From contig RBNJ01000240.1 in the NCBI GenBank assembly GCA_003990765.1, positions 1-35,760 on the forward strand: DNA of 35,760 nt. The letters are read 5' to 3'. This DNA is from Jimgerdemannia flammicorona. Taxonomy: Eukaryota. Each line of letters opens with the position of its first letter. Position 1 is the stretch's first letter. The translations under genes and the position numbers were made by a program. Of this stretch, positions 791 through 35,728 are shown in pieces. The notes beneath the pieces are model-generated. The model was not told where the DNA came from. It ran no database searches and saw only the letters and a list, made by a program, of their open reading frames with translations.

Positions 791-1282
791 ATCTATAGTT
801 AGAAATAAGATATTCTTAACCTAGTATTATTATATATATTAATTTCTATAACTAGTATATACTTAGCTTATATTAGTAGATTATTTATCTTATAATAGAA
901 TAAAAAAACAGTCATCAGAAATATATTAGAGCAGAAAGTAGTTATAATTAGTATGAAACAATAACTATGAGAAGATATAAATATCAGACAAAAGACAGGA
1001 TATCAAACAATATCTCTATTTTTGAAAATTACAAAGATATCTCCTCAATATAACTATTAGATATCTTACTAAAGTCAGTCTCTTCTAAGTCCAACAGACC
1101 ACCTCTTTGACTATATCAAGATTGTAATATAAGAAAGAAACTTCTACTCTAAGATTCTTAACCTCTCCAGCTAGAACCTTGAACACTTTGTTCTCAACTG
1201 CTGAGAAGTTATTAAAAGGACCTTTTAATCTATTAGCTACTTAAAGATCTAGTATGAGTATAAAATTAGCTACTATATCTAT

Positions 1283-1729
1283 TGTAACGTAGCAGATGCT
1301 AAGATAGGCAAGTATGTCGGATTTCTTTATCTTGAATTCTTATCTTCTTGACTCTCAGAGTCAGTAGTTCCTTGAGGCCAAATATGTTTAAAGAGATAAT
1401 CCCAAAGGTCCTTTTATCAGTATACTTGTTCTTTTTCTAACACTTTCAATCTGAGGTTTATTCACTTCAAGATACTGGGTTATTTATATAAGTTTGCTAG
1501 CTATGCAAAGGTGGCTAAGTAATAAATGAGTCATTTGGACTTTGTCGAAATATTTAGACAATGTCTAAATACTATACTAAATCGAGACATTTGATTTAGA
1601 TAATGTTTAAGAATTTAGACAATGTCGAAATTGAGGACTGCTAACTATAAGGCTATACTACTTTGGAACTGGGTGCGATCGAGTGTCTATTCCCTATTTC
1701 CTTCTTCTAAATTTGGCTGTACCATCACA
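1283..1729 (-). repeat. 3' LTR of element A
   Basis: Collinear with 18065-18511 and the same length; about 30 substitutions counted by eye; TATATAAATA on the minus strand at 1481-1490 and AATAAA at 1457-1462. Confidence 0.97.
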
Positions 1730-1730
1730 A

Positions 1731-1739
1731 CTTCCTCCT
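1731..1739 (-). promoter_or_regulatory. Polypurine tract of element A
   Basis: Minus strand AGGAGGAAG, one base before the 3' LTR start TGTGATG. Confidence 0.85.
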
Positions 1740-1793
1740 GAATAGATGGTCTCATCCCTGAGGCATCTATTCAAACTCCCAGGCTTCAACCAT

Positions 1794-2228
1794 CTATATG
1801 GTCTTATACTGCGCAATTTGCTGCATGACTGTTTCCCAATGATGTCTTCTCACTTTCTCAAAGTCAGTGGGGGTTACTCCTCTCAGGTGGTCTATTGCTG
1901 GTTCATCTTCTCGGAATAGCTTGTGAATCCTTTTGGCAATAGTGATCTGTGAGTGAGAGAGTTGACACTCGGCAATCCAGTCCTCTTTAGTCTTTGCTGG
2001 ATCCTGATTGAGCACCTGTCCAAGCTTGAAGTACTCTTGGAATTCTGCCCGATATTGATAGGCTCTAAAGTGTGAGATCCGAGAGAGATGAGTCTGCACA
2101 ATACTCTGAATATCCTCACAGTATGCCTCTATGGTCGGAGGCTTGGTAGTGTGCCATTGTCTTTCGATAGCTCTTTGGGCAGCACTAGTGATCTTGAGTG
2201 CCATCGCAGTACTTTGGTTATTGGCCAT
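1794..2228 (-). CDS. Accessory ORF3 of element A, 144-aa uncharacterised protein, probably helical
   Basis: Intact ORF between integrase and the PPT; its ATG (2228) overlaps the end of pol (TAA 2220-2218) by 11 nt; similar to the LTR-encoded ORF of element B (YFKLG...QLSHSQITIAKRIHKLF.E....IDHLR..T). Confidence 0.8.
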   Translation of the reverse strand: MANNQSTAMALKITSAAQRAIERQWHTTKPPTIEAYCEDIQSIVQTHLSRISHFRAYQYRAEFQEYFKLGQVLNQDPAKTKEDWIAECQLSHSQITIAKRIHKLFREDEPAIDHLRGVTPTDFEKVRRHHWETVMQQIAQYKTI

Positions 2229-3996
2229 AGTACTTCTTGAGTCAGTTTTGATGAATGATGGTGGAGATTATTGTGCCTGAGGGCTTTCGTAACCGGAAAG
2301 TAGTTCCTTTTATATCTTGTACCAAATAAGGTCCTTCCCACTTGGGCTCCAGTTTTCATGACCAAGAAGCTTCTACCATATTCTGATATACTAAGACTTC
2401 ATCTCCTATCTTGATAATCTCCAGAAGCTTGTGGGCTTTTCCGCATTGTTCTGTTGTAGTGTCTGCACCTTGATTATGTAATCCTCTGCCTTTTTCCTAA
2501 TTTGATGCAATCTCTGTATCTCCATGTCCACATGCTTCCAGATTGCATCATTACTTACTGACAAACTTCCACTAGAACTTTCTTCACCGAATAGCATTTC
2601 TCATGGTGTAAAATGGATACTTTGTAATTGTATATCCTGCAGAGTGGATAATGCTATTGGTAGATAGTAGTCCCAGTTTCCATATTTGTCACAGATCTTA
2701 GCAATGATGTTCTTGAAGATCTTGTTGGTTCTTTCTGCTTGTCTGTTTCCTTGTGGGTAATAGACTGTGGTCTTGATATGTTGAATCTTGTACTTCTTGT
2801 AAAGAACCTCATGGAACTGGTTGACGAATTCTGTTCCTCTGTCTATAGTAACTTGCTTTGGGGTCTTGAATCAGCAGATGATTTCTCTATGTAAGAAATC
2901 GGCAATTGACTGTGCATTGGCTTCCTTGAGGGGTCCAGCCTCTACCCATTTTGTAAATAGATCCACTATTACAATGATATATCAGTTGCCAGTCAATATC
3001 AGGGGGAGAGGGCCAATTACATCCATTGCAATATGGGCAAATGGTATTGGTTCGATGTCTGCTAATCCTGGGGCTTGATCCCATCAGTCTTGTTTCTGTT
3101 TCTGGTATTTATCACAGGTTCTGACAAATTGTCTGATATCTTCTTCCATTCCAGGCCACCACATGGTTCTTCTCACTTTATCATATGTATTTATTCCTCC
3201 TACATGACCTTGTTTATGTACTTCTTTCATCACTTGATTCTTCCGGTGCTCGGGAATGACTAATTGTTGTCCTTTCTTGAGTATTTCTCCATCAGTTTCG
3301 AATTGTTTCCATGTCTGATTAATAATTGTTTTGGTCCATTCTTCCAGATGTGGGGGCATCTTTCGCTGCCCCAGGTAGCTGATGATTCCATAATACAGCT
3401 CTCTATTCATGGTGATTTCATGGGGGTGGGGTCCTTCGGGGTGTCCATGAGAGGGCATCTGCATTGGCATTGGTTCTTCCAGGGTGGTGGGTGATTGTGG
3501 CATCATATGCTTGCAGCTTCATGATCCATCGGGCATAGATTCCTTTGGGCTCACTAGTAGTGAGCAACCAGGTGAGTGCCGAATAATCTGTCTGGATGGT
3601 GAAGTATCTGCCAGCCAGATAGTAGTGGAACTTCTCCACAGCCCAGATGACTGTGAGGCATTCCAACTTGTATGATTCATAGGACTGCTTGGCTCCTCAG
3701 GTACCTCAGCTGAGATAAGCTACACATATTCAGCACCATTCTTCTTTTGTGTGAGGACAGCTCCAAGTCCCATTGCACTGGCATTCATCTGCAGAATAAA
3801 CTCTTGAGTCCAGTCAGGTCTTCTCAGGATTGGGGCCTGGGTCAATCTGGTCTTAAGCTCGTCAAAGGCTAGTTGCTGCTGCTGAGTCCACTGGAACTTG
3901 ACCTCTTTTCTGAACAGATCATAGATAGGACTGGCGATGTGGGAGAACCTTCTAATAAATCTTCTATAGTAGGATGCAAGTCCCATGAAGGCTCGG
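2218..3996 (-). pseudogene. pol: Element A pol, 3' part: RT connection, RNase H and integrase (no chromodomain)
   Basis: FMGLASYYRRFI; FILQMNASAMGLG (decayed TDAS); ECLTVIWAVEKFHYYL; zinc-binding region HKQGHVG...CDKYQ; C-terminal KWEGPY motif; stops and frameshifts. Confidence 0.95.
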
Positions 3997-4477
3997 TGTA
4001 AGAGGGTTACTTTTTAGGGTAACCGTTATGTAGTTCTGGAAAGGTTTTCTGGATATTCTGGATGTTCTAGAAGACCATTTTCTTATGGTCAAGATCAATT
4101 TCGTATAGAGTATGTCCTCTACGCTTATTGATTTCAAGATTGGGTTGACGTCTCAACCAAAGTCCTTTTTTGGACTAGTTCTGGATGTTCAGGATTTTCC
4201 GTATTTCAGGAAGTTCAAGAAACTAAGACCAGCTTAGTTGAATTGGCATATCGCTGCAGACAATACCCAATTAGGAAATTTCGTGATAGGGTTAGGAGTG
4301 GGACCTAACAGAGAGCGGATTTACTTAAGAGTGGTTTGTGGGTTATGGAATAGGTTTATTTGCTATTCATGGTATTGCTATACTAGGAGTATTTGTGTGA
4401 AGGGATATTGTGGGGAAGTGCTCAGGAGTTGTGTTCAGATTGTTCAAGTCTGAGATTCTGAGGTCTGGGGGAGAGGG

Positions 4478-4485
4478 TATTTATA
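4478..4485 (-). promoter_or_regulatory. Putative TATA box of the element B LTR (second copy at 13020-13027)
   Basis: TATAAATA on the minus strand, followed by a pyrimidine run and AATAAA at 4355-4360, the usual U3/R layout. Confidence 0.6.
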
Positions 4486-4674
4486 CTAGTGAGGGGCTAT
4501 CTGAACTATGCTAAATATGGGTGTAGCACTAAGTGCTTTGTTGAGTCGGAATACAGTCATGTAGTACAAGTGTGATCTGACATGTCAAGAGATCGTCTGA
4601 CTGCTGAGTCAGTTCACAGTCACATTGTACAAGGCTAATCTAACTATACTATAACTGCTAGGCTATTTATGGGT

Positions 4675-5907
4675 TTAGGCACTGTCTGGGTAGTCTTCGA
4701 TGACATCACCATCAATTGCATCATCTCTGATGAAGTAGTCATCTAGGAATAATGGTTCGCGGATTACTCCTCCTTGTTCGCTGAGATAATAGTACATTGG
4801 AACTTCGTCTCCGTCCCATAGGATAGCATCGTCTGTCTCGTAGGCTGGATAAGGTGTTGGTGGGCGAAGGATGGGTGTATTGTCTTCGCTTTCATCGGAT
4901 TCACTGTCTGTGTACCTTCTATAGGTTACAGTACTATGAGTTGCAGGATTGTAGTAAGCTGGTGGCTGTGGTTCATGTCGCTTGTACTCAGGTAGTGGAG
5001 TGGTTGGTTCAATCTCGAGAGTTGTCTGGAGGTACAGGTTGTGTTCTCCAGTTTCTTCATTGTAGTTGAAGTAGTTGGGGGTGAACATGGGTTGGTATTC
5101 GTGCCAGTGGTCATTGTCCCAATAAGTCTCATATACAGTTATGAACTGTTGCAAGTTCATCAGCAAGTTTGGTGGTGTGATCAGGGTTGGTAGAGATTCT
5201 TAGCTAGAGATCATGTTGGCATTAGAGGGATCATTATCTTCTGCTTCATCTTCATCGAAGTAGATTATATCGTAGATGTCCTTCATAGCATATCCGACTT
5301 GGGGCATTTGCAGGATATGGTCATCAGGGTGTGGGAAGGTTCTATCTGTAGTCTGGATGTACTCGAGGTACTTGTAGTTGAGTTCTTGTATCATGTCATT
5401 GATTTGGCCATAGGATAGGGTAGCAACCATTTCGCTGGTAGTGACTTGAAGGTGGGAAATAAAGGTGTTATACTCATAGAAGAGTTCTCGATGTTTGCAG
5501 GCGATGAGCTTCTGGTGTTGAGACATCTGGGTAATGTCTGTATCATGGTAGTGTTTGACCATGTCTTTCAGGAGGCAGCCGATCTGATAGTAGCTTGAGA
5601 TTTGTCTGATTCGGTGGGCCTTGCTAAGCATGTTCAGAGTATTCCATCGGGCTTCCACAAAGTAGAGGGGTGCTAGACTATGGATATTCATAAGGGGCAG
5701 AGGGGGTGTGACTCGGTTGACAATGGCATTCCAAATATCAGCATGGATACAGTTGTAGATCTCAGTGGTCATATTTGTATATTTGGAAGTTGTGGTTGTT
5801 GTTTGTTTTGGTTCTCTGATTCGACGCATCTCAGTGCTCAGTATATATGCATCTAATCCTGATTGGTAAGATTCCGTTTGTATAATTCTTGTGTTCTGTG
5901 ACTTCAT
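4675..5907 (-). pseudogene. ~410-aa ORF inside the U3 of element B's 3' LTR (one premature stop)
   Basis: ORFs 5200-5907 and 4675-5166 are in the same frame, separated by one TAA that is CAA in the other LTR copy (ISSQESLP). Confidence 0.85.
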
Positions 5908-6030
5908 ATTGACTCAGCTTTGTGATCAAGCAGGTGATTTCCAGATTTGTTCAGAGGTCGCATGTGATTTCAGTGGCTTGTTCCAAGGGTGACGTGTGAT
6001 TTCGGTGGCTTGGAGGTTGTGTGCTTACAA

Positions 6031-6043
6031 CTCTCCCCTTCTT
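6031..6043 (-). promoter_or_regulatory. Polypurine tract of element B
   Basis: Minus strand AAGAAGGGGAGAG, one base before the LTR start TGTAAGC. Confidence 0.9.
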
Positions 6044-6454
6044 AGCTTTCGATGTCCTCGTCGGGGCCTTCTAATTTGTTCTAGTGTTGTTACACTATTT
6101 GGGAGGTCAAAAGTCTGGTAAGGTCCATTTTCTCAGAAAGTGGCATGCTCGTAGTACAGTTGCCTAATGTGTTGGATTCACACGTTAAAGGGTCATATGT
6201 TCAATGCCGTGCGCCAGAAGTGATTCTGATATCATTCACTACTGGAGAATTTCCTCTAAGGAATCTTCTTAAATGTCTATACCTTGTTTCCCACCAGTGG
6301 TATAGGGAGAATAGGCTTGCTTTCAGTTTTGCTATTTTTTCCAGAGATTCGGTATTCTTGTCTTGTTTTGCTGAGTCTTGATTTGGTTCATGGTAGTTAT
6401 AATGTTCGGAAGGATAATATATGGTATGTGTAGATGGGTGCGGAATATTTAGTT

Positions 6455-6622
6455 CTAGTTGTTCAAGGAGTTATATTTCTGAACTAAGTTAGTAGCATTC
6501 TGGAGATTGGTCTTGAGTTCCCAGGTTACATCATGGATTGGGTAACCTTTCCATTTGACAAGGTACTCAGGATGGTTCTTGTTTCTGCATTTGTTCAGGA
6601 TTTGTTCAACTTCGTACTCTTC
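6455..6622 (-). pseudogene. Chromodomain at the integrase C-terminus of element B
   Basis: Manual translation EEYEVEQILNKCRNKNHPEYLVKWKGYPIHDVTWELKTNLQNA, in frame with pol; TAG at 6457-6455. Confidence 0.93.
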
Positions 6623-9600
6623 TTGGTCATTAATGATGACAGGTGCAGGTGGTTTGGTGGTCCAGTTTGGAAATAGCTTGTCATTATTGTCATTGTATCG
6701 CTTGAGATGTTGAACATTAAAGACTGGGTGAATCTTAATGGAGTCTGGTAGTGCTAGTTTGTAGGAGGTTGGAGAGACTTGCGCAATGACTTCAAATGGT
6801 CCAATGAACTTGCTGTTCAGCTTTGTCGATGGTCTATGCTTGAGGTTGTCAACTCAGTATCCTCTGATGTCCAGTAGAACCTTTTCTCCAATATCAAAGG
6901 TTTCTTCTCTGCGGTGTTGGTTAACATACTGTGACTGTTGTTCTTGAGCTCATGATAAATTCTCAATTGTGATCTGGCTTAGATTATGCAATCGGAGTAA
7001 GAATTCTTCAACAGCTTTGACTGTAGAGGGTTCTTCAGTAGTTCAGATGAGTGTCAAAGGGGTGTTTGGGTTTTGTCCAGTATTGGCGAAGAATGGGGTC
7101 ATTCCAAGAGAGGCTTGCTTGCTATTGTTATAGGTAAACTCAACTGTGGTGAGGTATTCATGCCAGTCATCTTGTATGTAGGAAACATAGTTTCTTAGCA
7201 TTTGTTCCAGAGTTCGGTTCATTCTTTCAGTTTGGCCATCAGTTTCTGGGTGAAAGGCTGTGGATAGTGCAAGTTTTGTTCCAAGGTGCGCATGGAGGGC
7301 ATTCCAAAAGTGGCTGGTGAATTTCGGATCTCGCTCACTAACAATGATCTTAAGAAGACCATGATAGCAGAAGATGTTATCAAACAGGAGTGTGGCTGTG
7401 TCTGGTGCTGTTATGGTAGTGGTAGTAGGTACAAAGTGGGCTTGTTTGCTGAGATAGTCCATGAAGACAACAATTGCATCTTTCCCATTCTTGGTTCGGG
7501 GTAGTTGTACAATGAAGTCCATAGAGATTTGTTCCCAATTCGTGGATGGTACCGGGATAGGGTGGAGTAAGCCGGGTTTTGCTAGTGTTGAGAACTTGTT
7601 TCGTTGGCAGGTATCACAGGAAGTGATGTAGGTTTTGAGCTAATCTGCCATGTGGGGCCAATAGAAGTTTCGGGAGATAACTTCATAACATTTATCAAAT
7701 TCTAAATGTCCAGCTGTAGGGGCATCACGACATTCGAATAGGATAGTCCTTCGGAGGTCTCGGTTGTTTGGAACATACAACCTGTCCTTGTAGTAGATAG
7801 CATTGTCCTTGAGTTAGTATTGATTGTACTGGGTATATTTGTCAGCATTGTCATTGTTCAGGATTTCTCGGAGTGCTTGAGCTTCTTTATCATCAACACA
7901 TGCTGCGATGATTTGTTCCATGATAGTGTTGGTAACCAAGGTCAGAGTTTGGATAACCTCTTCGATTAGTGGTCTGGAGATTGCATCGGCAACAATATTT
8001 TCCTTGCCAGAGCGGTACTGGATTTCATAGTCAAAGTTGGTGAGAACTTTCATCCATCTGGCTTGCTTTCAAGAAAGGGTAGCCTGTGTCTTGATGTTGA
8101 CTAATGACTTGTGGTTAGTCAATACAGTGAAGTGTGCTCCTTCTAGGTATGGTCGCCATTTGATCAGAGTGTCTATGATGGCTAGCATTTCCTTCTTATG
8201 AGTTGCGTAGTTGATTTCAGCATCATTGAACTTGTGAGAGTGATAGGCTACAGGGTGTCCTTCTTGCATGAGCACTGCTCCAAGAGCTAGGTCAGAGGCA
8301 TTGGTAGTGACTTCATATGGTAGGGCAGGGTTTGCCGCTTAAAGTACTGGAGTGGTTATCAGGGCATCTTTTAGTGCTTGAAAGGCAGTATCTTGTTTGG
8401 GTCCCCAATTTACAAGATTATTGAAGTCTTTCTCTTGTTTCATGGTCCAGGGTTGTTCTTGTTTCTTGCTGTGCTTGGTCATTTGGGTGAGGGCAGTAGC
8501 GATTTTAGCAAAGTTGGCAATGAATCGCCAGTAATAGTTTGCTAATCCCAGGAATAACTAGAGGTCTTTCAGCTTCTTGGGCGTGGGCCAATCTTTGATT
8601 GCAGAGATTTTGCTGGGGTCCACTTTGATTCCATTTGGAGTAACAATGTGTCTAAGGAATTGAATTTCTTTCAGAAGAAATTCACACTTGCTGAGTTTTG
8701 CAAAGAGTCAGTTTTCTCAGAGTTTCAGTAGTACTAGTTCAAGGTGTTCAAGATGTTCTTCCAGGGTTTTGCTGAAGACTAGGATGTCGTCAATGTAGAC
8801 AACAATGAATTTATCCAGATATGGATGCAGAATGGTATTCATCAGTGTCTGGAAGGTTGCTGGAGTATTAGTTAAGCCAAAGGGCATAACCAGGAACTCG
8901 AAGTGTCCATAGTGGGTTCGGAAAGCTGTCTTGTAGATGTCTTCTTCTTTCATGGCAATTTACCAGTAACCATTTCGCAGGTCAAAAGAGCTCATGAATT
9001 GTGGGTTGGTAAGTCTATCGAATATTTCATCAATCCTTAGTAGTGGGCAACAGTTCTTAATGGTTTGTTCGTTGAGATCGCGGTAGTCAATGCACATTCG
9101 TAGGTCTCCTCCTTTCTTGACAATAAAGAGGACTGGTGCACCATAAGGTGATACACTGGGTCTGATGAATCCTTGTTCTAGGAGTTCATCAATCTCCTTC
9201 TTGAGTGCATCTATTTCTCTCAGGGACATATGGTAGATTGACTTGAAGGCTGGTTTGGCATCTGGAATAGTCTTGATTGCATGGTCTACTGCTCACTTGG
9301 GAGGTAGGCCTTTTGGAAGCTTCTTTGGAAATATGTCTCGAAATTTCTGGAGTAGTGGTCTGACATGGCTGTCAACCTTGGAAAAATCTTCTTCAGAGTT
9401 CTCAGGTTCTCCTTTGGATGGGTGGATGGAGATGGCGAAGAGAGGGCATTTCTTGGCCAATTTCTTGAGTTGTAGCTTATTGATGTGAGTGATCTTTGGT
9501 CCAGGGTCACTAGAGTGAAGTGGGTCTTTTTCACCTTATAGTTTGAAGTGATGGCATCCTTTCTTGATGGTCAGGGAATGGTTTACCCAATCGATCATAG

Positions 9601-9900
9601 GGTTCTCTTGTTTTAACCATGACGTCCCAAGGATGATTTCATTGTCAGGAAGTGGTATGATTTGGAGGATAACATGTACTCAGTAGTCACCAATTCGGAG
9701 GGGTAGATTGCAGACTTCTTTGCTAATAATATGTGAGGTCCCATCAGCTGTAGCGACTGCTTGAGTTTGCTGTACTGGAGAGGTAAAGACCTTGAGTCTG
9801 TTGGCTGTCTCTTCATTGATGAAGTTGCCTGAGGCACCACTGTCTATCATAATCTTGACAGGTGCTCGATTGACAAAAGCTTTAAGTGTAAGCAGTTTGT
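6623..9900 (-). pseudogene. pol: Element B pol: aspartic protease, RT, RNase H, integrase
   Basis: [41 protein letters not shown] and NIVADAIS; MDFIVQLP, DGQTERMN and GPF motifs; all fragments share one frame, broken by point stops. Confidence 0.96.
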
Positions 9901-10111
9901 CTGATCTAATGGTAGTGATTTTGGTTGTTTGAGCTTTCCTTCTGTTGGTTCTTCTTTGAGCCAGTTCATTGATACAAGAGAAGCAATCATCAATCATTCG
10001 GGAAGAGTACATTCCAATGCCATGAGAGCATCAGCCACTTGGTACATATCTGTCTTCTATCTTCTTGTAGAATTGTCCTTCTTTGCTCATGGTAGGTTGG
10101 GCTGGGGCCTT

Positions 10112-10530
10112 GTTTGATGAGCCAAATCCTTTGGATCCTCAGATGGTGGGCAGTAGTTCAGGGACTTCCTTGACTGTCAGAGTTGACTCGATTTTTTCAA
10201 ATAGGATCTGGGCAATGCAGAAACCAATAGGGATCTTGAAGGGTGTCCAACTGTGGTTTCGGATGAGGACAATAATTTCATCTGTGTAATCCTCATCAAT
10301 GACTCCTCCTTCTACTGAGAGTCCTTTCAATGCTAGGCTGCTGTGACAGCATATTCTTCCAACATGTCCTTTAGGGATTTGAATACTGATTCCAGTGTAA
10401 ACTTGTTTGACTTCTTGGTTAGAAACTGTAGCTTCTTCAGCTGCATACAGGTCATATCCGGCTGCTTTTTGACTTCCTTTAGTTGGGGCCTTAGCAGTTT
10501 GTCTTAACTTGACAAAGTCTAGTGTTCTTG
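10112..10530 (-). pseudogene. dut: Trimeric dUTPase domain of element B, between the Gag zinc knuckle and the protease
   Basis: AAGYDL, SSLALKGL, GGVIDEDY, IAQI and *GSKGFGSS (motif V Arg codon now TGA). Confidence 0.93.
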
Positions 10531-10594
10531 TAGTCAGGTTGTTGAGGTGGTGAAGAGTGGTAACAGTTGCTCGTGTTGCTGTTCGGGGTTTTCA

Positions 10595-11577
10595 GTTGGG
10601 GCAGGCACTGGTCATGTGTCCTGTCTTTCAGCAATAAAAGCATGCTCCACTTCTTCGAAGTTCATTCCTTTCGCCTTCAGTGAGTTTCTTGAAGGTGCTC
10701 GGCTGGGTAGGTTCATGATTTCTGGGTGTCCAAGAGGTGGATATAGAGGGAGCTCGGGATGCTTCATGCTTGGGTTCTTCTTTCTTGGTCCAAGTCTTTT
10801 CCTTGTTGTTAAATTGTCTTTGGGGCAGAATTGGTCCGGCTGTTAGGATTTGCTTGATCATGGTCTTGATTCTTGCCAGACACCATTGTTAGTGATCACA
10901 ACCAACTGGGTGGCCTTGTTCTCGGATTTTTCTAGTAAGCCATTCAGGCAGTGCATTGAATAAATGGTCTGCTCTTGTACCATTTCGTGCTTCATCATTG
11001 GTGATATATCCTAGGCCAACAGTGTTCAGGAGTGACTCAAGTTTTGTATAGAAGGTTTCAAATTCTTCTTTATCATGTATATCAAATTTGAGGTTGCAGA
11101 GTTTTACTTGGGATTCTGCGATCATGGTTTCGCTGTGGTATTGGGCAATCATGAGTTGTTTGAGTCCAGGGGCTGCAGGATGGGCTCCATATCCTGGGGC
11201 ATTGTTTGCTGCATTCTGGGCAACTACTGCAGGTCGGGTATCCCATGTGAGGGGTTTTTCAGGAAGGGTTCGCCACCATTCTTCGGCAGGTCCTCAACAA
11301 CTTGACAGACATAGGCTGTAGTTGTAGTGAAGAGTTGTTCCAGGGTGTGGTCTTGATTGTTTGTCAGAATATGGTCAGCAACTCACTCATTAGTCCATTG
11401 ATTGGCTTCGAAGTTGGTGTCAACTACACTAATGAAGTTTTGGACTTCCTGTGCAGTACCATTGAAGATAGGTAGGCTCAGATTTTTGGTAGGTTGGGTC
11501 TGTTCAGCTAAGGCAGTAATGGTTGCTGCCATTATGGCTACCTGGGCTGTGAGGTCAAGAATCTGTTGGTTCACCAT
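10595..11577 (-). pseudogene. gag: Element B gag with CCHC zinc knuckle
   Basis: LPIFNG...FI, GPAEEWW, ERNELRRSGACFYC*KTGHMTSAC; one frameshift near 11305. Confidence 0.88.
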
Positions 11578-11661
11578 ATTGTTTACTGGAGGCAGTTGGA
11601 CTGCTGGTAGTGGTGTTACTGGTACTACTTGAGGTACTGGTGCAGAGTGTGATGGAGTTCT

Positions 11662-12465
11662 TTAGGTCTGTGTAAGTTGCTGGAGTAGTAGTTGTGGATC
11701 TGGAGTAAGGGCTTGATAGATAACTGTTTGTTGCTGTATAGGTGTATTCTGTCCTGATGGAGGTGCATCTCCTTCGGTGGTGTATCCGGGATCAAATTCA
11801 GTGAGATACTCCTTCTCCTCTTCGGTTTGGTCCTCATGTAATTGGGTTTGCTCAGCGTCAAAGTAGACAGAATCAGTTATATATCTGATTTCAGATGGAC
11901 TTAATTCAAAGTCAAGTTCAGGTTCGGTATTGGTTTCAGATTCAGGTAGGGCTGTAGCAGGGCCTGCTTCAGGTTCAGGGTCAGGTAGTTGATGAAGGGT
12001 TTCTCTTGCTTCTTCTTTGAGGATATGGCAGGCCTTGCTGTTCTGGAATCGGTAGTATAATGCGGTCTTGGTCCTGGTATGGTAAAAGTCAGTAGAGTTG
12101 AGCCACTTGACTACAGAGGCTTGGGCTTTGTGGGGAACTAAGGCTAGAAAGACTGCTGCTGGTTGTCCTAGATCGCTCAGATTTGTGGAGCTGACAAAAC
12201 TCTTGTTGAGAAGAGTAAAGAAGGCTTCAATAAGACCTTCTTCATCTTGACTTACTGGGTGTAGTGCAAGGAGTTCGGTGAATAGGGTTTCGCCTATTTG
12301 CTGATTTAACTGGAGTATTTCTTTCTTTGAATGGAGTTTGTCCCACTTGTTGCAGGTGTGGAGGTCAAATTGTCCTTGTACATCAGGTTCAATTCTCTCC
12401 AGATTGTCAGATGGTTCAGATAAAGTCCAGTTCAGAGGTTGGGCTTTATACCAACTTGTAGGAAT
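11662..12465 (-). pseudogene. 267-codon stop-free leader frame, upstream of and in frame with element B gag
   Basis: Manual translation is open from 12465 to a TAA at 11664-11662, then continues in frame into MVNQQ (11577); no in-frame ATG, so it is absent from the ORF track. Confidence 0.7.
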
Positions 12466-12512
12466 TCACAGAGGGGTTTGTAGCGAGGTGAGGAAGCATC
12501 TTGAAGCAGAAT

Positions 12513-12535
12513 TGGATTGAAAACCGCTGCTATCA
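12513..12535 (-). promoter_or_regulatory. Primer-binding site of element B, initiator tRNA-Met-like
   Basis: TGATAGCAGCGGTTTTCAATCC, 3 nt after the 5' LTR; resembles the iMet PBS TGGTAGCAG...TTTCGATCC with G>A changes. Confidence 0.7.
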
Positions 12536-12538
12536 AGT

Positions 12539-14571
12539 TGTAAGAGGGTTACTTTTTAGGGTAACTGTTACGTAGTTCTGGAAAGGTTTTCTGGATATTC
12601 TGGATATTCTGGAAGACTGTTTTCTTATGCTCAAGATCAATTTTGTATGGAGTATATCCTCTATGGTTATTGATTTCAAGATTGGGTTGACGTCTCAACC
12701 AAAGTCCTTTTTTGGACTAGTTCTGGATGTTCAGGATTTTCCATATTTCAGGAAGTTCAAGAAACTAAGACCAGCTTAGTTGAATTGGCGTATCGCTGCA
12801 GACAATACCCAATTAGGAAATTTTGTGATGGGGTTAGGAGTGGGACCTAACAGAGAGTGGATTTACTTAAGAGTGGTTTGTGGGTTATGGAATAGGTTTA
12901 TTTGCTATTCATGGTATTGCTATACTAGGAGTATTTGTGTGAAGGGATATTGTGGGGAAGTGCTCAGGAGTTGTGTTCAGATTGTTCAAGTCTGAGATTC
13001 TGAGGTCTGGGGGAGAGGGTATTTATACTAGTGAGGAGCTATCTGGACTATGCTAAATATGGGTGTAGCACTAAGTGCTTTGCTGAGTCGGAATGCAGTC
13101 ATATAGTACAAGTGTGATCTGACATGTCAAGAGATTGTCTGACTGCTGAGTCAGTTCACAGTCACATCGTACAAGGCTAATCTAACTATACTATGACTGC
13201 TAGACTATTTATGGGTTTAGGTACTATCTGGGTAGTCTTCGATGACATCACCATCGATTGCATCATCTCTGATGAAGTAGTCATCTAGGAATAATGGTTT
13301 GCGGATTACTCCTCCTTGTTCGCTGAGGTAATAGTACATTGGAACTTCATCTCCATCTCATAGGATAGCATCGTCTGTCTCGTAGGCTGGATAAGGTGTT
13401 GGTGGGCAAAGGATGGGTGTATTGTCTTCGCTTTCATCGGATTCACTGTCTGCATACCTTCTATAGGTTACAGCACTATGAGTTGCAGGATTGTAGTAAG
13501 CTGGTGGCTGTGGTTCATGTCACTCATACTCAGGTGGTGGAGTGATTGGTTCAATCTCGAGGGTTGTCTGGAGGTATAGGTTATGTTCTCCGGTTTCTTC
13601 ATTATAGTTGAAGTAGTTGGGGGTGAACACGGGTTAGTATTCATGCCAGTGGTCATTGTCCCAATAAGTCTTGTATACAGTTATGAACTGTTGCAAGTTC
13701 ATCGGCAAGTTTGGTGGTGTGATCAGGGTTGGCAGAGATTCTTGGCTAGAGATCATGTCAGCGTTAGAGGGATCATTGTCTTCTACTTCATCTTCATCGA
13801 AGTGGATTATATCGTAGAAATCCTTCATAGCATATCCGACTTGGGGCATTTGTAGGATATGGTCATCAGGGTGTGAGAAGGTTCTATCTGTGGTCTGGAT
13901 GTACTCAAGGTACTTGTGGTTGAGTTCTTGTATTATGTCATTAATTTGGCTGTAGGACAGGGTAGCAACCATTTCGCTGGTAGTAACTCGAAGGTGGGGA
14001 ATAAAAGTGTTGTACTCATAGAAGAGTTCTCAATGTTTGTGGGCGATGAGCTTCTGGTGTTGAGACATCTAGGTAATGTCTGTATCATGGTGATGTTTGA
14101 CCATATCTTCCAGGAGGCGGCTGATCTGATAGTAGCTTGAGATTTGTCCAATTTGGTGGGCCTTACTAAGCATGTTCAGAGCATTCCATCGGGCTTCCAC
14201 GAAGTAGAGGGGTGCTAGGCTATGGATATTCATAAGGGGCAGAGGGGGTGTGGCTCGGTTGACAATGGCATTCCAAATGTCAGCGTGGATACAGTTGTAG
14301 ATCTCAGTGGTCATATTTGTATGTTTGGAAGTTGTGGTTGTTGTTTGTTTTGGTTCTCTGATTCGACGCATCTCGGTGCTCGGTATATATGCATCTAGTC
14401 CTGATTGGTAAGATTTTGTTTATGTAATTCTTGTATTCTGTGACTTCATATTGACTCAGCTTTGTGATCAAGCAGGTGATTTCCAGATTTGTTCAGAGGT
14501 CGCGTGTGATTTCAGTGGCTTGTTCCAAGGGTGATGTGTGATTTCGGTGGCTTGGAGGTTGTGTGCTTACA
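12539..14571 (-). repeat. 5' LTR of element B (2033 bp)
   Basis: Direct repeat of 3997-6029; followed on the minus strand by the PBS. Confidence 0.97.
13217..14449 (-). pseudogene. Second copy of the LTR-encoded ORF (5' LTR of B), with several stops
   Basis: Fragments 14069-14371 and 13634-13972 match the 3' LTR copy; stops near 14421, 14069, 13634 and 13359 fall on codons that are sense in the other copy. Confidence 0.85.
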
Positions 14572-15340
14572 CTTGGGCTTCAGTGATACTGGTAGGTACT
14601 GGGTATGCTGCTACTGCCTTGATCTTTGTAGGGTCTGTATGTATTCCTTTGCAGTTGATGATGTGTCTAAGGTATGCAATTTCTTCTTCTCCAAACTTGC
14701 ATTTCTTGGGCTTGATGTAGAGGCCATATTTGCGAAGCCTTCTGAGAATTTCCTTGATATGTTCCAAGTGCTCCCTGGCAGTTTGGCTGAAGATGATTAC
14801 ATCATCTACATATACCATCATCCATTTTTCCATAACATCTCTGAAGATGCTGTTCATCATTCGCTGGAAACTTGCTGGTACATTGCACATTCCAAAGGGC
14901 ATGCGAAGATAGACATAGGTTCTATCAGGAGTGATGAAGGCTGATCTTTTGCTGGCTTCAGGTGTAAGACTGATTTGGTAAAATCTAGAGAATAGGTCAA
15001 GAGTGATATAGAATTGTACTTCATTTCCTAGCATGATAAGGATGTCGCCAATGTTGGGCAATAGTTGTCTATCCTTCTTGGTGACTTCATTGAGCCTTCT
15101 GTAGTCTGTACAGAGCCTTGGTGCAAACTCTCCTGGTCAGCTTCCTTTCTTTGGTGCAAGGACAATGGGGGAGGACCAAGGGCTGCTGGCTTTCTTGATG
15201 ATACCGGATTCCTCCATTTTCTTGATTTCTGTCTTGAGCCATTCTCTGTATACTGGTGGAATTGGGCGGGCCTTCTGATAAATTGGCTTCGCATCTCCGG
15301 TGTTGACATTATGATAGTACAGGGGCTTCTTGGTCTTGAT
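14572..15340 (-). pseudogene. pol: Element A reverse transcriptase, N-terminal and core part
   Basis: LDLFSRFYQI, RMPFGMCN, VYVDDVII, KPKKCKF; cut by the element B insertion. Confidence 0.96.
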
Positions 15341-15502
15341 GTCCTTAAAGTCAGTGGCCAGAATATCTTTAAATGCGTGCAGTAGTTTCTGTGGTTCTTC
15401 TTGGAGAGGGAAGTTCTTCCCAATTATGTAGGTGTGTCTGTTTTGACTTTCCTTCTTCTTGTGCTCTAATTCAGTAATCTTGATTGCTGCAAGGACTCCT
15501 CT

Positions 15503-15919
15503 TCCTGTGGAGCTGAATCCCGCTCTTCCTCACTCGGTTTGTCTGATTTTTGTTACTTCCTTGATTCTCAGGTTAAGGATAAGTAGGATGAGCATCTGCA
15601 CCAGCTGATCTTTCTTCCTTACTTCGAATGAAATGATTGGGTTGTGATTTCTGGTGAGAAGGAGGATTTCTCCAGTATAATCTGAATCAATGACTCCTCC
15701 TTCTATAGATATTTCACTTTTTGCCAGGCTGCTCCTTGTCTTGAGGATTCCAACGTGGTTTGGTGGGATGGTTACTTCGATTCCTGTTCCCAAGATGGTG
15801 GTGGTCTGTGGTTCGAGTATTGTGTGTATTGTTGTAGACAGGTCCATTCCTGCTGCATTCTCCAATTTGTATTGTGACATAACTGCATCAGGGTGGATCC
15901 TTCGTATCTTAACTATGAT
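15503..15919 (-). pseudogene. dut: Trimeric dUTPase domain of element A, between protease and RT
   Basis: AAGMDL, RSSLAK, GGVIDSDYTGEI and *GRAGFSSTG (motif V Arg codon now TGA). Confidence 0.94.
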
Positions 15920-16199
15920 GTCTTCCTCATCATCACTGTCATCCAATAGCCCTGGAGGTCTATCTTCTGGTTCCTCCTGGTTCTTCTTTGGCTTGTTGGT
16001 GATCTTCTTCACCTCAATGATGCAGGAGTAGCAGTAATCCAGGTGTTGAGCGCAATACATTCTTTCACCATAAGGGCACACTCCTTGAGGTGCATATCTA
16101 TTTACGATTTTTACATACCATTCTTTCTCTGTCAATTGCTTGCCTTTTCCTTTCTTTATAATAACTATATAGGTTTCTTCCTTTTGTTCTTCCTCTATC

Positions 16200-16600
16200 T
16201 CTGGGCAGACTCCTTTGTGGACATTGATGGGAATTCTGATCTTCTTTCCCTGGTAGACGATTTGCATCTTCTGTATGCTGAGGTCAATCATTGCCTTGGC
16301 TTTGTGAAGCCACTGATTGCCAATGAGAATATCATAGTTGGTTGCATTGGTAACAATGACATCTACAGGGATAGTGGCTTCACTGAATTTGATTGGTACA
16401 TCTTGAATCTTTCCCAAAGGTGTTGCTTGTGTTCCATCAGCTGTGATGAATACCAATTTGGTGGCTTTCTCTATTTCCCAGCCTAGACGGTCTACTGCTT
16501 TCTTAGTGATGAGGTATCCTCTGGCTCCTGTATCAATGATGGCTTCAAAGACTCAATTCTCGATCTGGCAAGTAGCATATACTGATGTTTTCCAATTGTC
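16200..16600 (-). pseudogene. Element A retropepsin-like aspartic protease
   Basis: AIIDTGA at ~16523-16543; ITADG; DILIGNQWL. Confidence 0.92.
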
Positions 16601-17159
16601 TTTGCTCTCTTCATCTGAATCTTCTTGTGCATTGTTGGCTTCGATTATTCTGTAACCCTGGTCTTTGCTGATGTCTGAGATCTCTGTTCTCATTTGTTGT
16701 CTGAATGTTGAGATTTCAGCCAGCTGGCCAAAGGTTGCATTGACTCTTTGGTCCTTGAGGTCCTTGAAGATGTCATACTTAAAGGTCTTACTCTTGCACA
16801 GTTTCTGCTCCTTCTTCCCTTCACTTGATGGGATAGTATTTTGAATAATATCTTCTACTGCTCGCTCCAGCTTGGCATCTTGTTCTAGCTCTATATCTTG
16901 GTCAGCTTCGCTCTGCTGAATTCCTTTTTTGGTGACCATTTCTGGTTGTTTTGTCTGTATCTGGGCCTTCTTAGGAGGTCTGCCTGGAGGTCTTTTGTAG
17001 GGACTGGATTGGACATCCTTCTTGCTTGAGATGGCAGGGTAAGCTTCCCATTCCTCCCTTTCTTCCTCAGATTTCCCAATCTCCTCGAAGGTGATAGTGT
17101 TTGCTTGTTCATGCTTCCTGGTTGCATTGCTTAGATTGGCCTTTCGCTTGGTTTCTGTC

Positions 17160-17965
17160 ATGCATTCTGAGGCATAGTGGCCTTCTTCTCCATAGTTATA
17201 GTATGTTATTAATTGTCTTATATTTGTAGCAGCAAACTTCTATACTGGCTTCTTCTTGAACTCTTTGACTATATCGCTGAGGTGTGCAGTCATTTCTGCA
17301 AACTGTTTGGCCAGTTCCTCCATTGGGTCAACCCTTCTCTGGTCTTGTAGTTGTAGTTGTGTATTCCGGTTGACTATGGTAGCCAGGATTGTATTGGTGA
17401 CTCTTGGTACTTATTCGATTTTTACTCCAGTTATCCTTTCCATTGTATGGCCTTGAGGGTGTCTGGCAGTCCAGTATCTTTGGGCATAGATAACCTTCTG
17501 TCCCAGGTCCAGTAGTATTGGGGTAGATCGAATGGCTAAAGTAATTTCTTGGTGAATGCCTTTTATAAAGGTATTCTTGGCCACTTGGTCTTGAACTGCA
17601 TTGGGGTAGTCAGTAAGGACTATTTGATGTCAGATTCTTATATAGAATATATTTGGGTCTTCAGACATTCCTTGGCAGATAGTATTCAGTTGATCTTTGA
17701 GTACCTGTTTGATTTCATCTGTGTATATAGTAGGTTACCCAGAGCCAGGCCTTGAAGGCCAGGATTCTTGCTGGATCATTGGCTCCTTATATATTAGCTA
17801 CAGTAAATGCAGTTCTTGCTGGGCCTCTGAGGCTCACAGAGAGTAGGGCTACTTGTTGTGCTGCCGATAAATTCTTATAGCAGCATACTGCTCGAAATCA
17901 TCAATGAAGGTAATGATTGATTTGTCGGAGGTATATCCATGGAATATGGGTGGTCTCATATCCAT
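17160..17965 (-). pseudogene. gag: Element A gag with decayed zinc knuckle
   Basis: MDMRPPIFHG...FIDDFE...SLRGPA; knuckle reads YYNYGEEGHYASEC (decayed CxxCxxxGHxxxxC); frameshifts and stops. Confidence 0.85.
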
Positions 17966-18044
17966 TCTGTCTGATTGTATTGTGTGGGTTCTGGTTGCGG
18001 TTATTTGTTATTCAGCTTGAAAGTGAGGGATTCATCTTGAATTA

Positions 18045-18061
18045 CCAGCCAATGGACACCA
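18045..18061 (-). promoter_or_regulatory. Primer-binding site of element A (tRNA not identified)
   Basis: TGGTGTCCATTGGCTGG, 3 nt after the 5' LTR; the TGG start is complementary to tRNA CCA. Confidence 0.75.
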
Positions 18062-18064
18062 AGT

Positions 18065-18511
18065 TGTAACATAGCAGATACTAAGATGGGCAAGTATATC
18101 AGATTTCTTTATCTTGAATTCTTGTCTTCTTGACTCCCAGAGTCAGTAGTTCCTTGAGGCCAAATGTGTTTAAAGAGGTAATCCCGAAGGTCCTTTTATT
18201 GGTATACTTGTTCTTTTTCTAATACTTTCGATCTGAGGTTTATTTACTCCAAGATACTGGGTTATTTATACAAGTTTGCTAGCTATGCGAAGGTGGCTAA
18301 GTAATAAATGAGTCATTTGGACTTTGTCAAAATATTTAGACAATGTCTAAATGCTATACTAAACCGGGACATTCAATTTGGATAATGTCTAAGAATTTAG
18401 ACAATGTCGAGATTGAGGACTGTTAACTATAAGGCTATACTATTTTGGAACTGGGTGCGATCGAGTGTATATTCCCTATTTCCTTCTTCCAAATTTGGCT
18501 GTACCATCACA
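18065..18511 (-). repeat. 5' LTR of element A
   Basis: Direct repeat of 1283-1729; followed on the plus strand by TSD CTAT. Confidence 0.97.
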
Positions 18512-18736
18512 CTATTAATACTATCAGAGCCTCACTATAGATCAAATTATCATCTAGACTAAACTGGATATATTGGTATAAATAAAGACTTACTAAAAAG
18601 ATCTATCAAATTTTCTGATATTACTCTCTATATAATCTCTAATTGTAACTTTAATAAATATCAGATATTTAGAATCTCTTCTACCCTAAAGTAGATAAAC
18701 TAAAAGTTAAGGTAGCTACTAAGGTCTACTCCTAAA

Positions 18737-30116: not shown

Positions 30117-30356
30117 TATTCAGATTATACAATCTTTTGACCCACTTAAGACATCATTTTTGGAGTAAAGATACTAGCAATATAGTAACCAATATACATT
30201 TTGAGATACATGATGGGCAGGGAAGCTCTAGTGCATTCAACTGGCAGTATGTGGAGAGGAGTCATAGCTTGGAGAGAAGTATGAGGGGCCTGCTAGCAGG
30301 AGGATATAAAAGGAGAGAGGGTGGCACTGGGGGACAGAGAACTAGAAGGGTGAGCC
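30117..30356 (+). mobile_element. 5' end of an older related LINE copy
   Basis: Diverged direct repeat of 30374-30613 (RHHFW..., GQGS.SAF.WQ.V.R, MRGLL.GG). Confidence 0.85.
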
Positions 30357-30439
30357 GCATCTCTTTCCAGTACCATTCAGGTTACACAACCTTTGGAAGG
30401 CACTTTCGACATCATTTTTGGCAAAAAGAGACTAACAAC

Positions 30440-32464: not shown

Positions 32465-32497
32465 AGGCAGATTGACAATATCACCTATATCATCAAT

Positions 32498-35726: not shown

Positions 35727-35728
<2 letters not shown>
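32498..35728 (+). pseudogene. LINE ORF2 (APE endonuclease plus reverse transcriptase), disrupted
   Basis: SLNVNGL, LLQD, GGDFN, WSDH; APGEDGLP, LDQEKAYD, GVPQGDPLSP, AFADD; CFDCEEC...PEHWL. Confidence 0.95.

What the first reader, a model, noticed from the sequence alone, without database searches (positions are those of the whole stretch)
1794..2228. Two different Gypsy elements share a homologous, unnamed accessory protein in different positions
Seen: ORF3 of element A aligns with the LTR ORF of element B (~5380-5610). YFKLGQVL matches YYQIGRLL. A gapless block follows: QLSHSQITIAKRIHKLFREDEPAIDHLRGVT versus QMSQHQKLIACKHRELFYEYNTFISHLRVTT, 12-13 of 31 identical by hand count (B taken as the consensus of its two copies). 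An upstream PP sits at similar spacing in both. In A the gene lies between IN and the PPT (the env position), overlaps the pol stop by 11 nt and is intact. In B it lies beyond the PPT, in U3, with a ~230-aa acidic tail. A and B differ in chromodomain, PBS, TSD length and domain order. No signal peptide or transmembrane segment is evident, so it is not env. Inference: a mobile accessory module exchanged between, or kept by, distinct lineages. It reminds me of uncharacterised Glomeromycotina repeat-associated proteins, which I cannot verify here.
Basis: partly seen in the sequence, partly recalled or inferred. Interest (0 to 1): 0.85.

Follow-up and report, generated by a model that had tools for sequence, protein, structure and literature searches.

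The report
Orphan third gene of Gypsy retrotransposon
A small extra gene at the tail end of a Gypsy-type jumping gene is real and kept by selection, but its claimed kinship with a gene inside the terminal repeat of a second, nested element is only borderline, so the shared-module idea stays unproven.

Summary
Element A (minus strand, LTRs 1283-1729 and 18064-18511) carries a third ORF (1794-2228) between integrase and the polypurine tract. Element B is nested in A's pol and has 2033-bp LTRs. Each B LTR holds a ~410-codon ORF (4675-5907) downstream of B's PPT.

ORF3 is a real gene. Ten proteins 65-82% identical exist, and a more intact element (L001) has a 153-codon ORF3. Window versus L001 gives pN 0.19 and pS 0.76, with codon-position differences of 30/23/85. 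Its synonymous divergence is about three times that of the adjacent integrase, so it looks like a recombining 3' cassette. It has no transmembrane segment, no Pfam family, and no relatives outside its own family among 1.84 billion representative proteins.

The A-B similarity reproduces (18/58 identical) but is borderline:
- BLASTP E is 0.008, and 0.04-1% of shuffles reach the observed score, depending on method.
- hhalign P is 0.045-0.07.
- A window-wide tblastn gives E 0.43, with a better spurious hit elsewhere.
- The score falls to chance level in other ORF3 clades.
- Fold models are too poor to compare.

Homology is therefore unproven, at roughly 40%. This is a new member of a known kind: extra ORFs of Ty3/Gypsy elements.

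The parts
1283..1729 (-). 3' LTR of element A (TG...CA), with 4-bp TSD CTAT at 1279-1282 and 18512-18515
1731..1739 (-). Polypurine tract of element A (AGGAGGAAG). It is conserved in L001.
1794..2228 (-). ORF3 of element A, 144 codons plus stop. The family form is 153 codons and would end at 1767; a premature stop truncates this copy. The start has a conserved A(-3)/G(+4) context.
1872..2045 (-). Part of ORF3 (residues 62-119) that aligns with the LTR ORF of element B
2185..2228 (-). pol/ORF3 overlap as in the family: 44 nt, with ORF3 in the +1 frame. This copy has an earlier new pol stop at 2218-2220.
2218..3996 (-). 3' part of element A pol (RNase H, integrase zinc finger, core and C-terminus), degraded by stops and frameshifts
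3997..6029 (-). 3' LTR of nested element B (2033 bp), with 5-bp TSD CTCGG (3992-3996) / CTTGG (14572-14576)
4675..5907 (-). ORF inside the B LTR, about 410 codons with one internal stop at about 5200-5202. It has a helical N-terminal part and an acidic Pro/Tyr-rich tail.
5437..5604 (-). Part of the B LTR ORF (residues 102-157) that aligns with ORF3
4478..4485 (-). TATAAATA box downstream of the LTR ORF. It is identical in both LTR copies and places the ORF in U3 (inferred).
   Evidence: read from the sequence
6031..6043 (-). Polypurine tract of element B (AAGAAGGGGAGAG)
6044..12538 (-). Internal region of element B: gag, dUTPase, PR, RT, RNase H, IN, SH3, chromodomain. It is degraded.
12539..14571 (-). 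5' LTR of element B. It holds the second, more broken copy of the LTR ORF at 13217-14449.
14577..18063 (-). 5' part of element A (gag, PR, dUTPase, RT), interrupted by the insertion of B
18064..18511 (-). 5' LTR of element A

Best explanation
ORF3 (1794-2228, minus strand) is the third gene of a dUTPase-bearing, chromodomain-less Ty3/Gypsy family, and it is specific to that family.

Shown:
- It encodes a soluble, all-helical protein of about 153 residues.
- It fills the whole space between integrase and the PPT.
- It starts at its own AUG in a strong context, 44 nt before the family's pol stop, in the +1 frame.
- It is kept by purifying selection about as strong as that on gag.
- Its synonymous divergence is much deeper than that of the flanking integrase and LTR.

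Inferred:
- It is a 3' cassette that recombines between sublineages, as env does in retroviruses.
- It is most likely a trans-acting accessory factor that the element needs for its own propagation. My best guess, at about 30%, is a small nucleic-acid-binding regulator of element RNA or LTR transcription, made from a 3' subgenomic RNA or by reinitiation at the pol stop.

The ORF in element B's LTR is a second orphan accessory gene. It sits in U3 and therefore also at the 3' end of the genomic RNA. Its kinship with ORF3 is possible (about 40%) but not demonstrated.
For: - Relatives: 10 proteins pass E<=0.01 among 15 candidates, at 65-82% identity.
- L001 is a more intact element with gag-PR-dUTPase-RT-RH in one 1258-codon ORF and a 153-codon ORF3.
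- Selection, window versus L001: ORF3 has pN 0.186, pS 0.764 and a ratio of 0.24, with codon-position differences of 30/23/85 in 152 codons. The ratio is 0.21 for gag and 0.21 for IN-C.
- Cassette behaviour: pS is 0.24 in IN-C and 0.76 in ORF3. Third-position differences are 15/120 against 85/152 (Fisher p 5e-14). Nucleotide identity is 83-94% per 100 nt across pol, 66-75% inside ORF3, and 84% in the PPT/LTR start.
- Start context and PPT are conserved in both DNA copies.
- No TM segment. The model is all-helical.
- Orphan status: the only hits among 1.84 billion representatives are its own family plus one spurious repeat protein. No Pfam family matches.
- B ORF: it is present in both LTRs, and one 84%-identical relative exists.
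Against: - No RNA evidence exists. No RNA run was listed as a holder, so expression and the route of translation are pure inference.
- Selection and recombination rest on only two DNA copies. pS in ORF3 is at saturation, and pS also varies along pol (0.24-0.51), so mosaicism is not unique to ORF3.
- The window copy itself is a decaying relic: ORF3 has 1 new stop in 154 codons, the same rate as pol.
- The nucleic-acid-binding idea has only weak leads. HTH_Tnp_Mu_2 scores 14.8 bits against a cut-off of 20.5, in 2 of 11 members, and over residues 5-63 rather than the block shared with B. The best fold match is Z 6.2 to the RSV M2-1 core, on a pLDDT-53 model, and the tool notes this level is common for helical bundles.
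Confidence: 0.6

Rival explanations
1. True shared module. ORF3 of A and the N-terminal helical part of B's LTR ORF descend from one 3' accessory gene. It was either kept vertically since the A/B split or swapped between lineages. In B's lineage the PPT moved upstream of the gene, so the gene became part of U3 and is copied into both LTRs.
For: - BLASTP E is 0.008, with 18/58 identical.
- Shuffles reach the score in 11/2000, 16/2000 and 20-31 of 3000 trials. HMM against shuffles gives 2/5000 and 24/5000.
- The two are reciprocal best non-self hits among 382 window ORFs, with B->A at E 0.0046 and the next hit at 0.68.
- The B model aligns every A-family member that covers the block in the same register, with non-negative scores of 0.1-10.9 bits.
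- Both genes sit at the 3' end of the inferred genomic RNA.
- Both elements are dUTPase-bearing Gypsy elements in one genome.
- The 31% identity is in line with pol at 25-36%.
Against: - Profiles weaken the match instead of strengthening it: hhalign P is 0.074 and 0.045 with probability about 1%, and A-profile->B gives E 0.11, tied with an unrelated ORF at 0.12.
- A window-wide tblastn gives E 0.43, with a higher-scoring spurious hit.
- Other ORF3 clades score 28-39 against a shuffle mean of about 31.7.
- The invariant W84-I85 of family A is unmatched in B, and the HLR..T identities fall on positions that vary within family A.
- The Atlas neighbours of the two proteins share no family.
- The pair was picked post hoc, by eye.
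Confidence: 0.4
2. Chance resemblance. A's ORF3 and B's LTR ORF are unrelated lineage-specific orphan genes. The 58-residue match is what two helical, Q/I/H/K-rich sequences can give when a reader scans many ORFs.
For: See the evidence against the shared-module rival. In addition, each family has no detectable relatives beyond close copies, which is typical of fast-evolving extra ORFs. Retrosat2 ORF0, for example, is reported to evolve faster than pol (PMC3485330, passages).
Against: Empirical p is 0.0004-0.01 for the single pair. The register is consistent across family members. The two genes occupy equivalent positions in the transcript.
Confidence: 0.55
3. ORF3 is a counter-defence factor, for example a suppressor of host RNA silencing or another restriction. 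It would not be a regulator of the element's own nucleic acids. Deeply diverged alleles would be kept and shuffled because they meet different host factors.
For: ORF3 alleles are deeply diverged on a much more similar backbone. The family splits into several clades at 63-96% identity. It is a small soluble helical protein with no enzymatic family.
Against: There is no sign of positive selection: pN/pS is 0.24. No similarity to any known suppressor was found. No expression data exist.
Confidence: 0.2
4. ORF3 is not a gene at all, only a fortuitous open frame in the 3' untranslated region of the element.
For: The window copy is a dead element. No protein family and no RNA evidence were found.
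Against: Codon-position differences are 30/23/85 and pN/pS is 0.24 over 152 codons. The frame is open at full length in L001 and in relatives that differ by up to 37%.
Confidence: 0.03

Closest known systems
'Additional ORFs of unknown function' in fungal Gypsy elements, and variable dUTPase placement (Novikova et al. 2010, PMC2864245; passages read)
   Same: Fungal-type Ty3/Gypsy elements, with or without a chromodomain. dUTPase sits at different places in pol in different families, and some elements have an extra ORF of unknown function.
   Different: That paper gives no sequence family for such ORFs in the passages I read, and I did not open its supplementary tables. Here the ORF is shown to be under purifying selection and to have a separate history from pol.
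ORF3 types shared between unrelated retroelements in bdelloid rotifers (Rodriguez, Kenefick, Arkhipova 2017, PMC5408684; outline and abstract read)
   Same: A third ORF downstream of pol in dUTPase-bearing LTR elements, with the same ORF3 type in unrelated lineages.
   Different: The rotifer ORF3s are recognisable families (env-like, GDSL esterase, DEDDy exonuclease) with strong homology. Here the protein has no family and the cross-lineage homology is unproven.
Accessory genes encoded in or overlapping U3 of retroviral LTRs: MMTV sag, foamy-virus tas/bet, HIV nef (recalled; for sag only the listing and abstract start of PMC4667437 were seen)
   Same: B's ORF lies downstream of the PPT, inside the LTR and upstream of the TATA box. 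It is therefore carried at the 3' end of the genomic RNA and duplicated in both LTRs. A helical domain followed by a long acidic tail resembles the layout of a transactivator such as Tas.
   Different: No sequence relation was found or tested. The host is not a vertebrate. The TSS and expression are not known. A's ORF3 lies upstream of the PPT, in the classic env position.
Retrosat2/RIRE ORF0 of rice Ty3/Gypsy elements (PMC3485330; passages read)
   Same: An orphan extra ORF in elements with very long LTRs. It evolves faster than pol and its function is unknown.
   Different: ORF0 lies upstream of gag-pol, not at the 3' end. That paper reports Ks similar to pol, whereas ORF3's pS is about three times that of the neighbouring integrase.

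Membership tests
Retroviral/errantiviral env in the env position | Signal peptide and membrane anchor (hydrophobic segments) | tested here: not met
   The highest 19-residue Kyte-Doolittle mean is 0.08 in the window ORF3 and 0.39 in the L001 ORF3. Both are far below a TM segment.
Retroviral/errantiviral env in the env position | Match to an env or fusion-glycoprotein family | tested here: not met
   Pfam finds no family for P0001 at E<=10, and none of that kind in 11 further family sequences.
Extra ORF (ORF3/aORF) of Ty3/Gypsy LTR retrotransposons (positional class) | Sense-strand ORF between the end of pol and the PPT | tested here: met
   ORF3 spans 2228-1794, the pol stop is at 2220-2218 and the PPT at 1739-1731. 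L001 has the same layout.
Extra ORF (ORF3/aORF) of Ty3/Gypsy LTR retrotransposons (positional class) | Kept open and constrained among diverged copies | tested here: met
   pN 0.186, pS 0.764, and codon-position differences of 30/23/85. The full-length ORF is open in L001 and in P0003.
   BLASTP E is 0.008. Shuffle p is 0.0004-0.01. hhalign P is 0.045-0.074. Window-wide E is 0.43. Other clades score at the chance mean.
   Both models are all-helical but unreliable: mean pLDDT is 53.4 for A and 43.1 for B.
Pfam PF09039 HTH_Tnp_Mu_2 (Mu transposase I-gamma DNA-binding subdomain) | Score at or above the gathering cut-off of 20.5 bits | tested here: not met
   The best scores are 14.8 and 13.0 bits, in 2 of 11 members scanned, over residues 5-63. 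The window protein does not hit.
Rotifer ORF3 enzyme types (GDSL esterase, DEDDy exonuclease) | Recognisable enzymatic domain | tested here: not met
   No such Pfam family appears in any ORF3 sequence or in the B ORF.
U3-encoded accessory gene arrangement (as MMTV sag); applies to the element B ORF only | ORF downstream of the PPT, inside the LTR, upstream of the promoter | tested here: met
   The PPT is at 6043-6031, the LTR starts at 6029, the ORF spans 5907-4675, and TATAAATA is at 4485-4478. The TSS itself is inferred, not observed.
U3-encoded accessory gene arrangement (as MMTV sag); applies to the element B ORF only | Sequence relation to sag, tas or nef | not tested
   No direct comparison was run. 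Pfam and PDB-sequence searches of P0002 gave nothing.

The most novel reading that the evidence does not exclude
A and B carry remote homologues of one 3' accessory gene that is widespread among dUTPase-bearing fungal Gypsy lineages. In B's lineage a shift of the PPT moved the gene into U3. An LTR retrotransposon then carries a sag/Tas-like LTR-borne gene that combines a nucleic-acid-binding helical domain with a roughly 250-residue acidic activation-like tail. That would be a retrotransposon-encoded transactivator, kept as a recombining cassette.
Probability: 0.15. Interest if true: 0.7.

Novelty: new member of a known kind. Interest (0 to 1): 0.4.

Why it matters
Extra genes of LTR retrotransposons are the raw material from which retroviruses gained env and regulatory genes, yet in fungi they are barely characterised. 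This locus provides three things:
- a clean example of a small orphan third gene that is under selection and has a different history from the pol next to it;
- a second element whose accessory gene sits inside U3 of a 2-kb LTR, an arrangement best known from complex retroviruses;
- a concrete hypothesis, testable with fungal genome data, that the two are one gene family separated only by a PPT shift.

If that link holds, it would show how an internal gene becomes LTR-borne. If it does not, the locus is an ordinary pair of nested, decaying Gypsy elements, each with its own orphan ORF.

Tried and rejected
- Whole-genome searches were not possible. No genome is held for this window.
- Pfam on 93 minus-strand ORFs of both elements gave only the expected pol domains and nothing for ORF3 or the B LTR ORF.
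- PHROGs gave nothing better than E 0.03.
- PDB sequence search gave only an asparaginase at E 0.12 for the A profile and nothing for B.
- The 1.84-billion representative search with the ORF3 profile gave 4 hits at E<=0.001. Three are family members. The fourth, P0014, is a 2190-aa HYR-repeat protein whose repeated weak matches add up, and I rejected it as spurious.
- Word-indexed searches with the B ORF: 24 candidates and none significant at 129-412 aa; one 84%-identical fragment among shorter proteins.
- IMG/VR scans with B and with the A profile found no relative, out of 11 and 48 pattern matches.
- ESM Atlas: A's nearest clusters are unnamed phage or bacterial proteins (0.95). B's are an F-box cluster and unnamed clusters (0.91). 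They share no family.
- AlphaFold2 gave pLDDT 53.4 (A) and 43.1 (B).
- Foldseek against the PDB found no match at E<=0.001.
- VIA-align wide: the best hit is the RSV M2-1 core at Z 6.2, rmsd 3.5, 85 residues aligned. The tool's own note says this is below a meaningful level for helical bundles, so I did not use it.
- Sequencing runs: 6 holders, all with small shares, and no RNA holder listed.
- Contigs of 4 runs were laid. Many 80-99% similar short DNA contigs cover both elements, most densely the B LTR. They gave no information on expression or on selection.
- Earlier findings of this scan hold nothing on this genome or these sequences.
- A tblastn hit of ORF3 at 30012-29887 (27.3 bits) contains two stops in AT-rich DNA and I rejected it as chance.
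- The RH row used a wrong frame and is discarded.
- Literature searches found general precedents but no description of this protein family. Sequences cannot be searched in the paper library, so I make no claim that the family is absent from print.
Full report
**Layout of the window**

Bases 1279-18515 hold two nested Ty3/Gypsy elements on the minus strand.

Element A:
- LTRs of 447 bp lie at 1283-1729 and 18064-18511 (TG...CA), flanked by a 4-bp duplication, CTAT.
- The domain order is gag, protease, dUTPase, RT, RNase H, integrase. No chromodomain was detected.

Element B:
- It is inserted in A's pol between the RT and RNase H parts. The A reading frame continues across the insertion.
- It has 2033-bp LTRs at 3997-6029 and 12539-14571, which align at about 95% identity, and a 5-bp duplication, CTCGG/CTTGG.
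- The domain order is gag, dUTPase, protease, RT, RNase H, integrase, SH3, chromodomain.

A and B are clearly different lineages. Using the intact pol of the A-like locus L001 against B, identity is 36% over 440 residues for RT-RNase H, 36% for dUTPase, 25% for protease and 25% for integrase. The PBS regions also differ.

**ORF3 itself**

- The ORF at 2228->1794 gives 144 residues.
- Its ATG lies 11 nt before the first stop of the pol frame. It ends about 30-60 nt before the PPT (AGGAGGAAG), which abuts the 3' LTR.
- It has no hydrophobic segment. The highest 19-residue hydropathy mean is 0.08.

Two details need correcting.
- Relatives are 153 residues long, and the window copy has a premature stop nine codons early.
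- In the better-preserved relative L001, pol runs 44 nt into ORF3, with ORF3 in the +1 frame. The 11-nt overlap comes from a new stop in this decaying copy.

The window copy of ORF3 is not specially preserved. It has 1 new stop in 154 codons. The figures for pol are 5/1060 (gag-RT), 2/187 (IN-N) and 3/138 (IN-C) (the RH row of that call is invalid because I used the wrong frame).

**ORF3 is a real, selected gene**

- A word-indexed search found 10 proteins at E<=0.01 among 15 candidates, 65-82% identical, 83-153 residues.
- A metagenome scan found 268 pattern matches, of which 1 was a relative. That is L001, a 6479-nt contig with gag-PR-dUTPase-RT-RH in one 1258-codon ORF and an intact 153-codon ORF3 in the same place.
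- Between the window and L001, ORF3 differs at codon positions 1/2/3 by 30/23/85. pN is 0.186 and pS is 0.764, a ratio of 0.24. That is like gag (0.21) and the integrase C-terminus (0.21).
- The A(-3)/G(+4) start context and the PPT are conserved in both DNA copies.

**ORF3 has its own history**

| Region | pS |
|---|---|
| gag | 0.51 |
| PR-dUTPase-RT | 0.48 |
| RNase H | 0.42 |
| IN-N | 0.31 |
| IN-C | 0.24 |
| ORF3 | 0.76 |

- Third-position differences are 15/120 in IN-C against 85/152 in ORF3 (Fisher p 5e-14).
- Per 100 nt, identity is 83-94% through pol, 66-75% inside ORF3, and 84% again in the PPT/LTR start.
- The first ~75 nt of ORF3, including 30 nt beyond the pol stop, are still nearly identical. 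The switch in divergence therefore lies near 2155.
- The protein family splits into several clades at 63-96% identity.
- I infer that ORF3 is a cassette recombined between sublineages. Only two DNA copies support this, and pS also varies along pol.

**What ORF3 is not, and what it might be**

- No Pfam family matched the window protein at E<=10.
- 2 of 11 relatives touch HTH_Tnp_Mu_2 at 14.8 and 13.0 bits, below the 20.5-bit cut-off, over residues 5-63.
- PHROGs and PDB sequences gave nothing useful.
- A profile search of 1.84 billion representatives returned three family members and one spurious HYR-repeat protein.
- AlphaFold2 gives an all-helical model with pLDDT 53.
- Foldseek found nothing at E<=0.001. 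The best VIA-align hit, the RSV M2-1 core at Z 6.2, is at a level the tool calls common for helical bundles.

Function therefore rests on context. The gene is small, soluble and helical, it sits at the 3' end of the element, and it is needed often enough to be kept. I favour a trans-acting accessory factor acting on the element's RNA or LTR, at about 30%. A counter-defence factor is about 20%. The translation route is unknown. It could be a subgenomic RNA, an internal promoter, or reinitiation at the overlapping pol stop. A +1 frameshift fusion is not excluded, because the ORF3 frame has a stop only 12 codons upstream of its ATG.

**The ORF in B's LTR**

- It runs 5907->4675, about 410 codons with one stop in the low copy. 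The second copy at 14449->13217 is more broken.
- It starts 122 nt inside the LTR, just after B's PPT (6043-6031).
- A TATAAATA box at 4485-4478, identical in both LTRs, lies 190 nt downstream of its stop. I therefore place the ORF in U3, but the TSS has not been observed.
- If so, it is transcribed only as the 3' end of the genomic RNA. That is the same place in the transcript as ORF3 of A. The two 'different positions' then reduce to where the PPT sits.
- The protein has a helical N-terminal part (model pLDDT 43) and an acidic Pro/Tyr-rich tail (35 D/E against 7 K/R, pI 4.05).
- Only one relative was found, a 128-residue fragment at 84% identity.

**Is the A-B similarity real?**

The alignment reproduces: 18/58 identical with 2 gaps.

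Evidence for:

| Test | Result |
|---|---|
| BLASTP, single comparison | E 0.008 |
| Whole-sequence shuffles reaching the score | 11/2000 and 16/2000 |
| Block shuffles reaching the score | 20-31 of 3000 |
| B model against 5000 shuffled A | 2 reach the score |
| A profile against 5000 shuffled B | 24 reach the score |
| 382 window ORFs, B->A | best non-self hit, E 0.0046; next hit 0.68 |
| B model against A-family members covering the block | same register, non-negative scores |

Evidence against:
- Profile methods do not strengthen the match. hhalign gives P 0.074 and 0.045, with probability about 1%. A->B gives E 0.11, tied with an unrelated ORF at 0.12.
- In a six-frame search of the window the match has E 0.43, and a stop-containing spurious hit scores higher.
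- ORF3 proteins of the other clades score 28-39 against B. The shuffle mean is about 31.7.
- The invariant W84-I85 of family A has no counterpart in B, and the HLR..T identities fall on positions that vary within family A.
- The pair was selected by eye after the fact.

I put true homology at about 40%. If it is real, identity of 31% beside pol at 25-36% fits vertical retention with a PPT shift at least as well as exchange.

**Comparison with what is known**

- Extra ORFs of unknown function, and dUTPase at varying positions, have been noted in fungal Gypsy elements (PMC2864245, passages).
- ORF3 types shared between unrelated retroelements are documented in bdelloid rotifers (PMC5408684, abstract).
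- Fast-evolving orphan ORFs occur in long-LTR plant elements (PMC3485330, passages).
- An extra gene, brtn, is reported for a Botrytis Gypsy element (bioRxiv 10.1101/2021.04.13.439636, one passage).
- U3-borne accessory genes are known from retroviruses. I recall MMTV sag, foamy-virus tas/bet and HIV nef; for sag I saw only the listing of PMC4667437.
- My literature searches found no description of this protein family, but sequences cannot be searched there.

**Verdict**

ORF3 is an accessory gene, not an env, and it behaves as a module. The cross-lineage homology is unproven.
- ORF3 is a new member of a known kind.
- The organism was not identified. Similar DNA is abundant in contigs of soil metagenome runs, which is no evidence of taxon.

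Noticed in passing
window 10142-10591 and 15533-16552 (minus strand): Both nested Gypsy elements carry a dUTPase, on opposite sides of the protease (A: PR-dUTPase; B: dUTPase-PR). A Cys-rich stretch next to it (L001 pol residues 545-590) is 47% identical to B's stretch between dUTPase and PR. That is higher than the 36% seen for RT or for dUTPase.
   Followed up: partly
window 30092-35758 (+ strand): A GC-rich (52-57%) non-LTR (LINE-like) retroelement sits in an otherwise AT-rich setting. A 396-codon first ORF with no family is followed by an RT (RVT_1, E 1e-25). The reading frame runs off the window's end in a run of T. A 213-nt direct repeat at 70% identity lies at 30143-30355 / 30401-30613.
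   Followed up: no
window 20000-28000: A stretch of 43-47% GC has very strong strand asymmetry (GC skew -0.35 to -0.57) and no Pfam hit in any of the ORFs scanned. It may be an old, heavily mutated repeat.
   Followed up: partly
window 4678-5199 (minus strand), tail of the B LTR ORF: The acidic tail holds a PPAY (PPxY-type) motif and Ser/Asp/Glu runs. Both are present in both LTR copies. In other systems such motifs recruit WW-domain ubiquitin ligases. In a Pro/Tyr-rich sequence this could be chance.
   Followed up: no
window 1282-6030: Contigs from four metagenome runs laid at >=80% likeness differ from the window mostly by transitions. In X1 the counts are A>G 157, G>A 127, C>T 80, T>C 73, against 3-14 for each transversion type. 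The B LTR is covered roughly ten times more deeply than element A.
   Followed up: no
window 2155-2228 (minus strand): The first ~75 nt of ORF3 are nearly identical between the window and L001, including about 30 nt beyond the pol stop and at synonymous sites. The rest of ORF3 is only 66-75% identical. This marks either the recombination boundary or a conserved RNA signal at the pol/ORF3 junction.
   Followed up: partly
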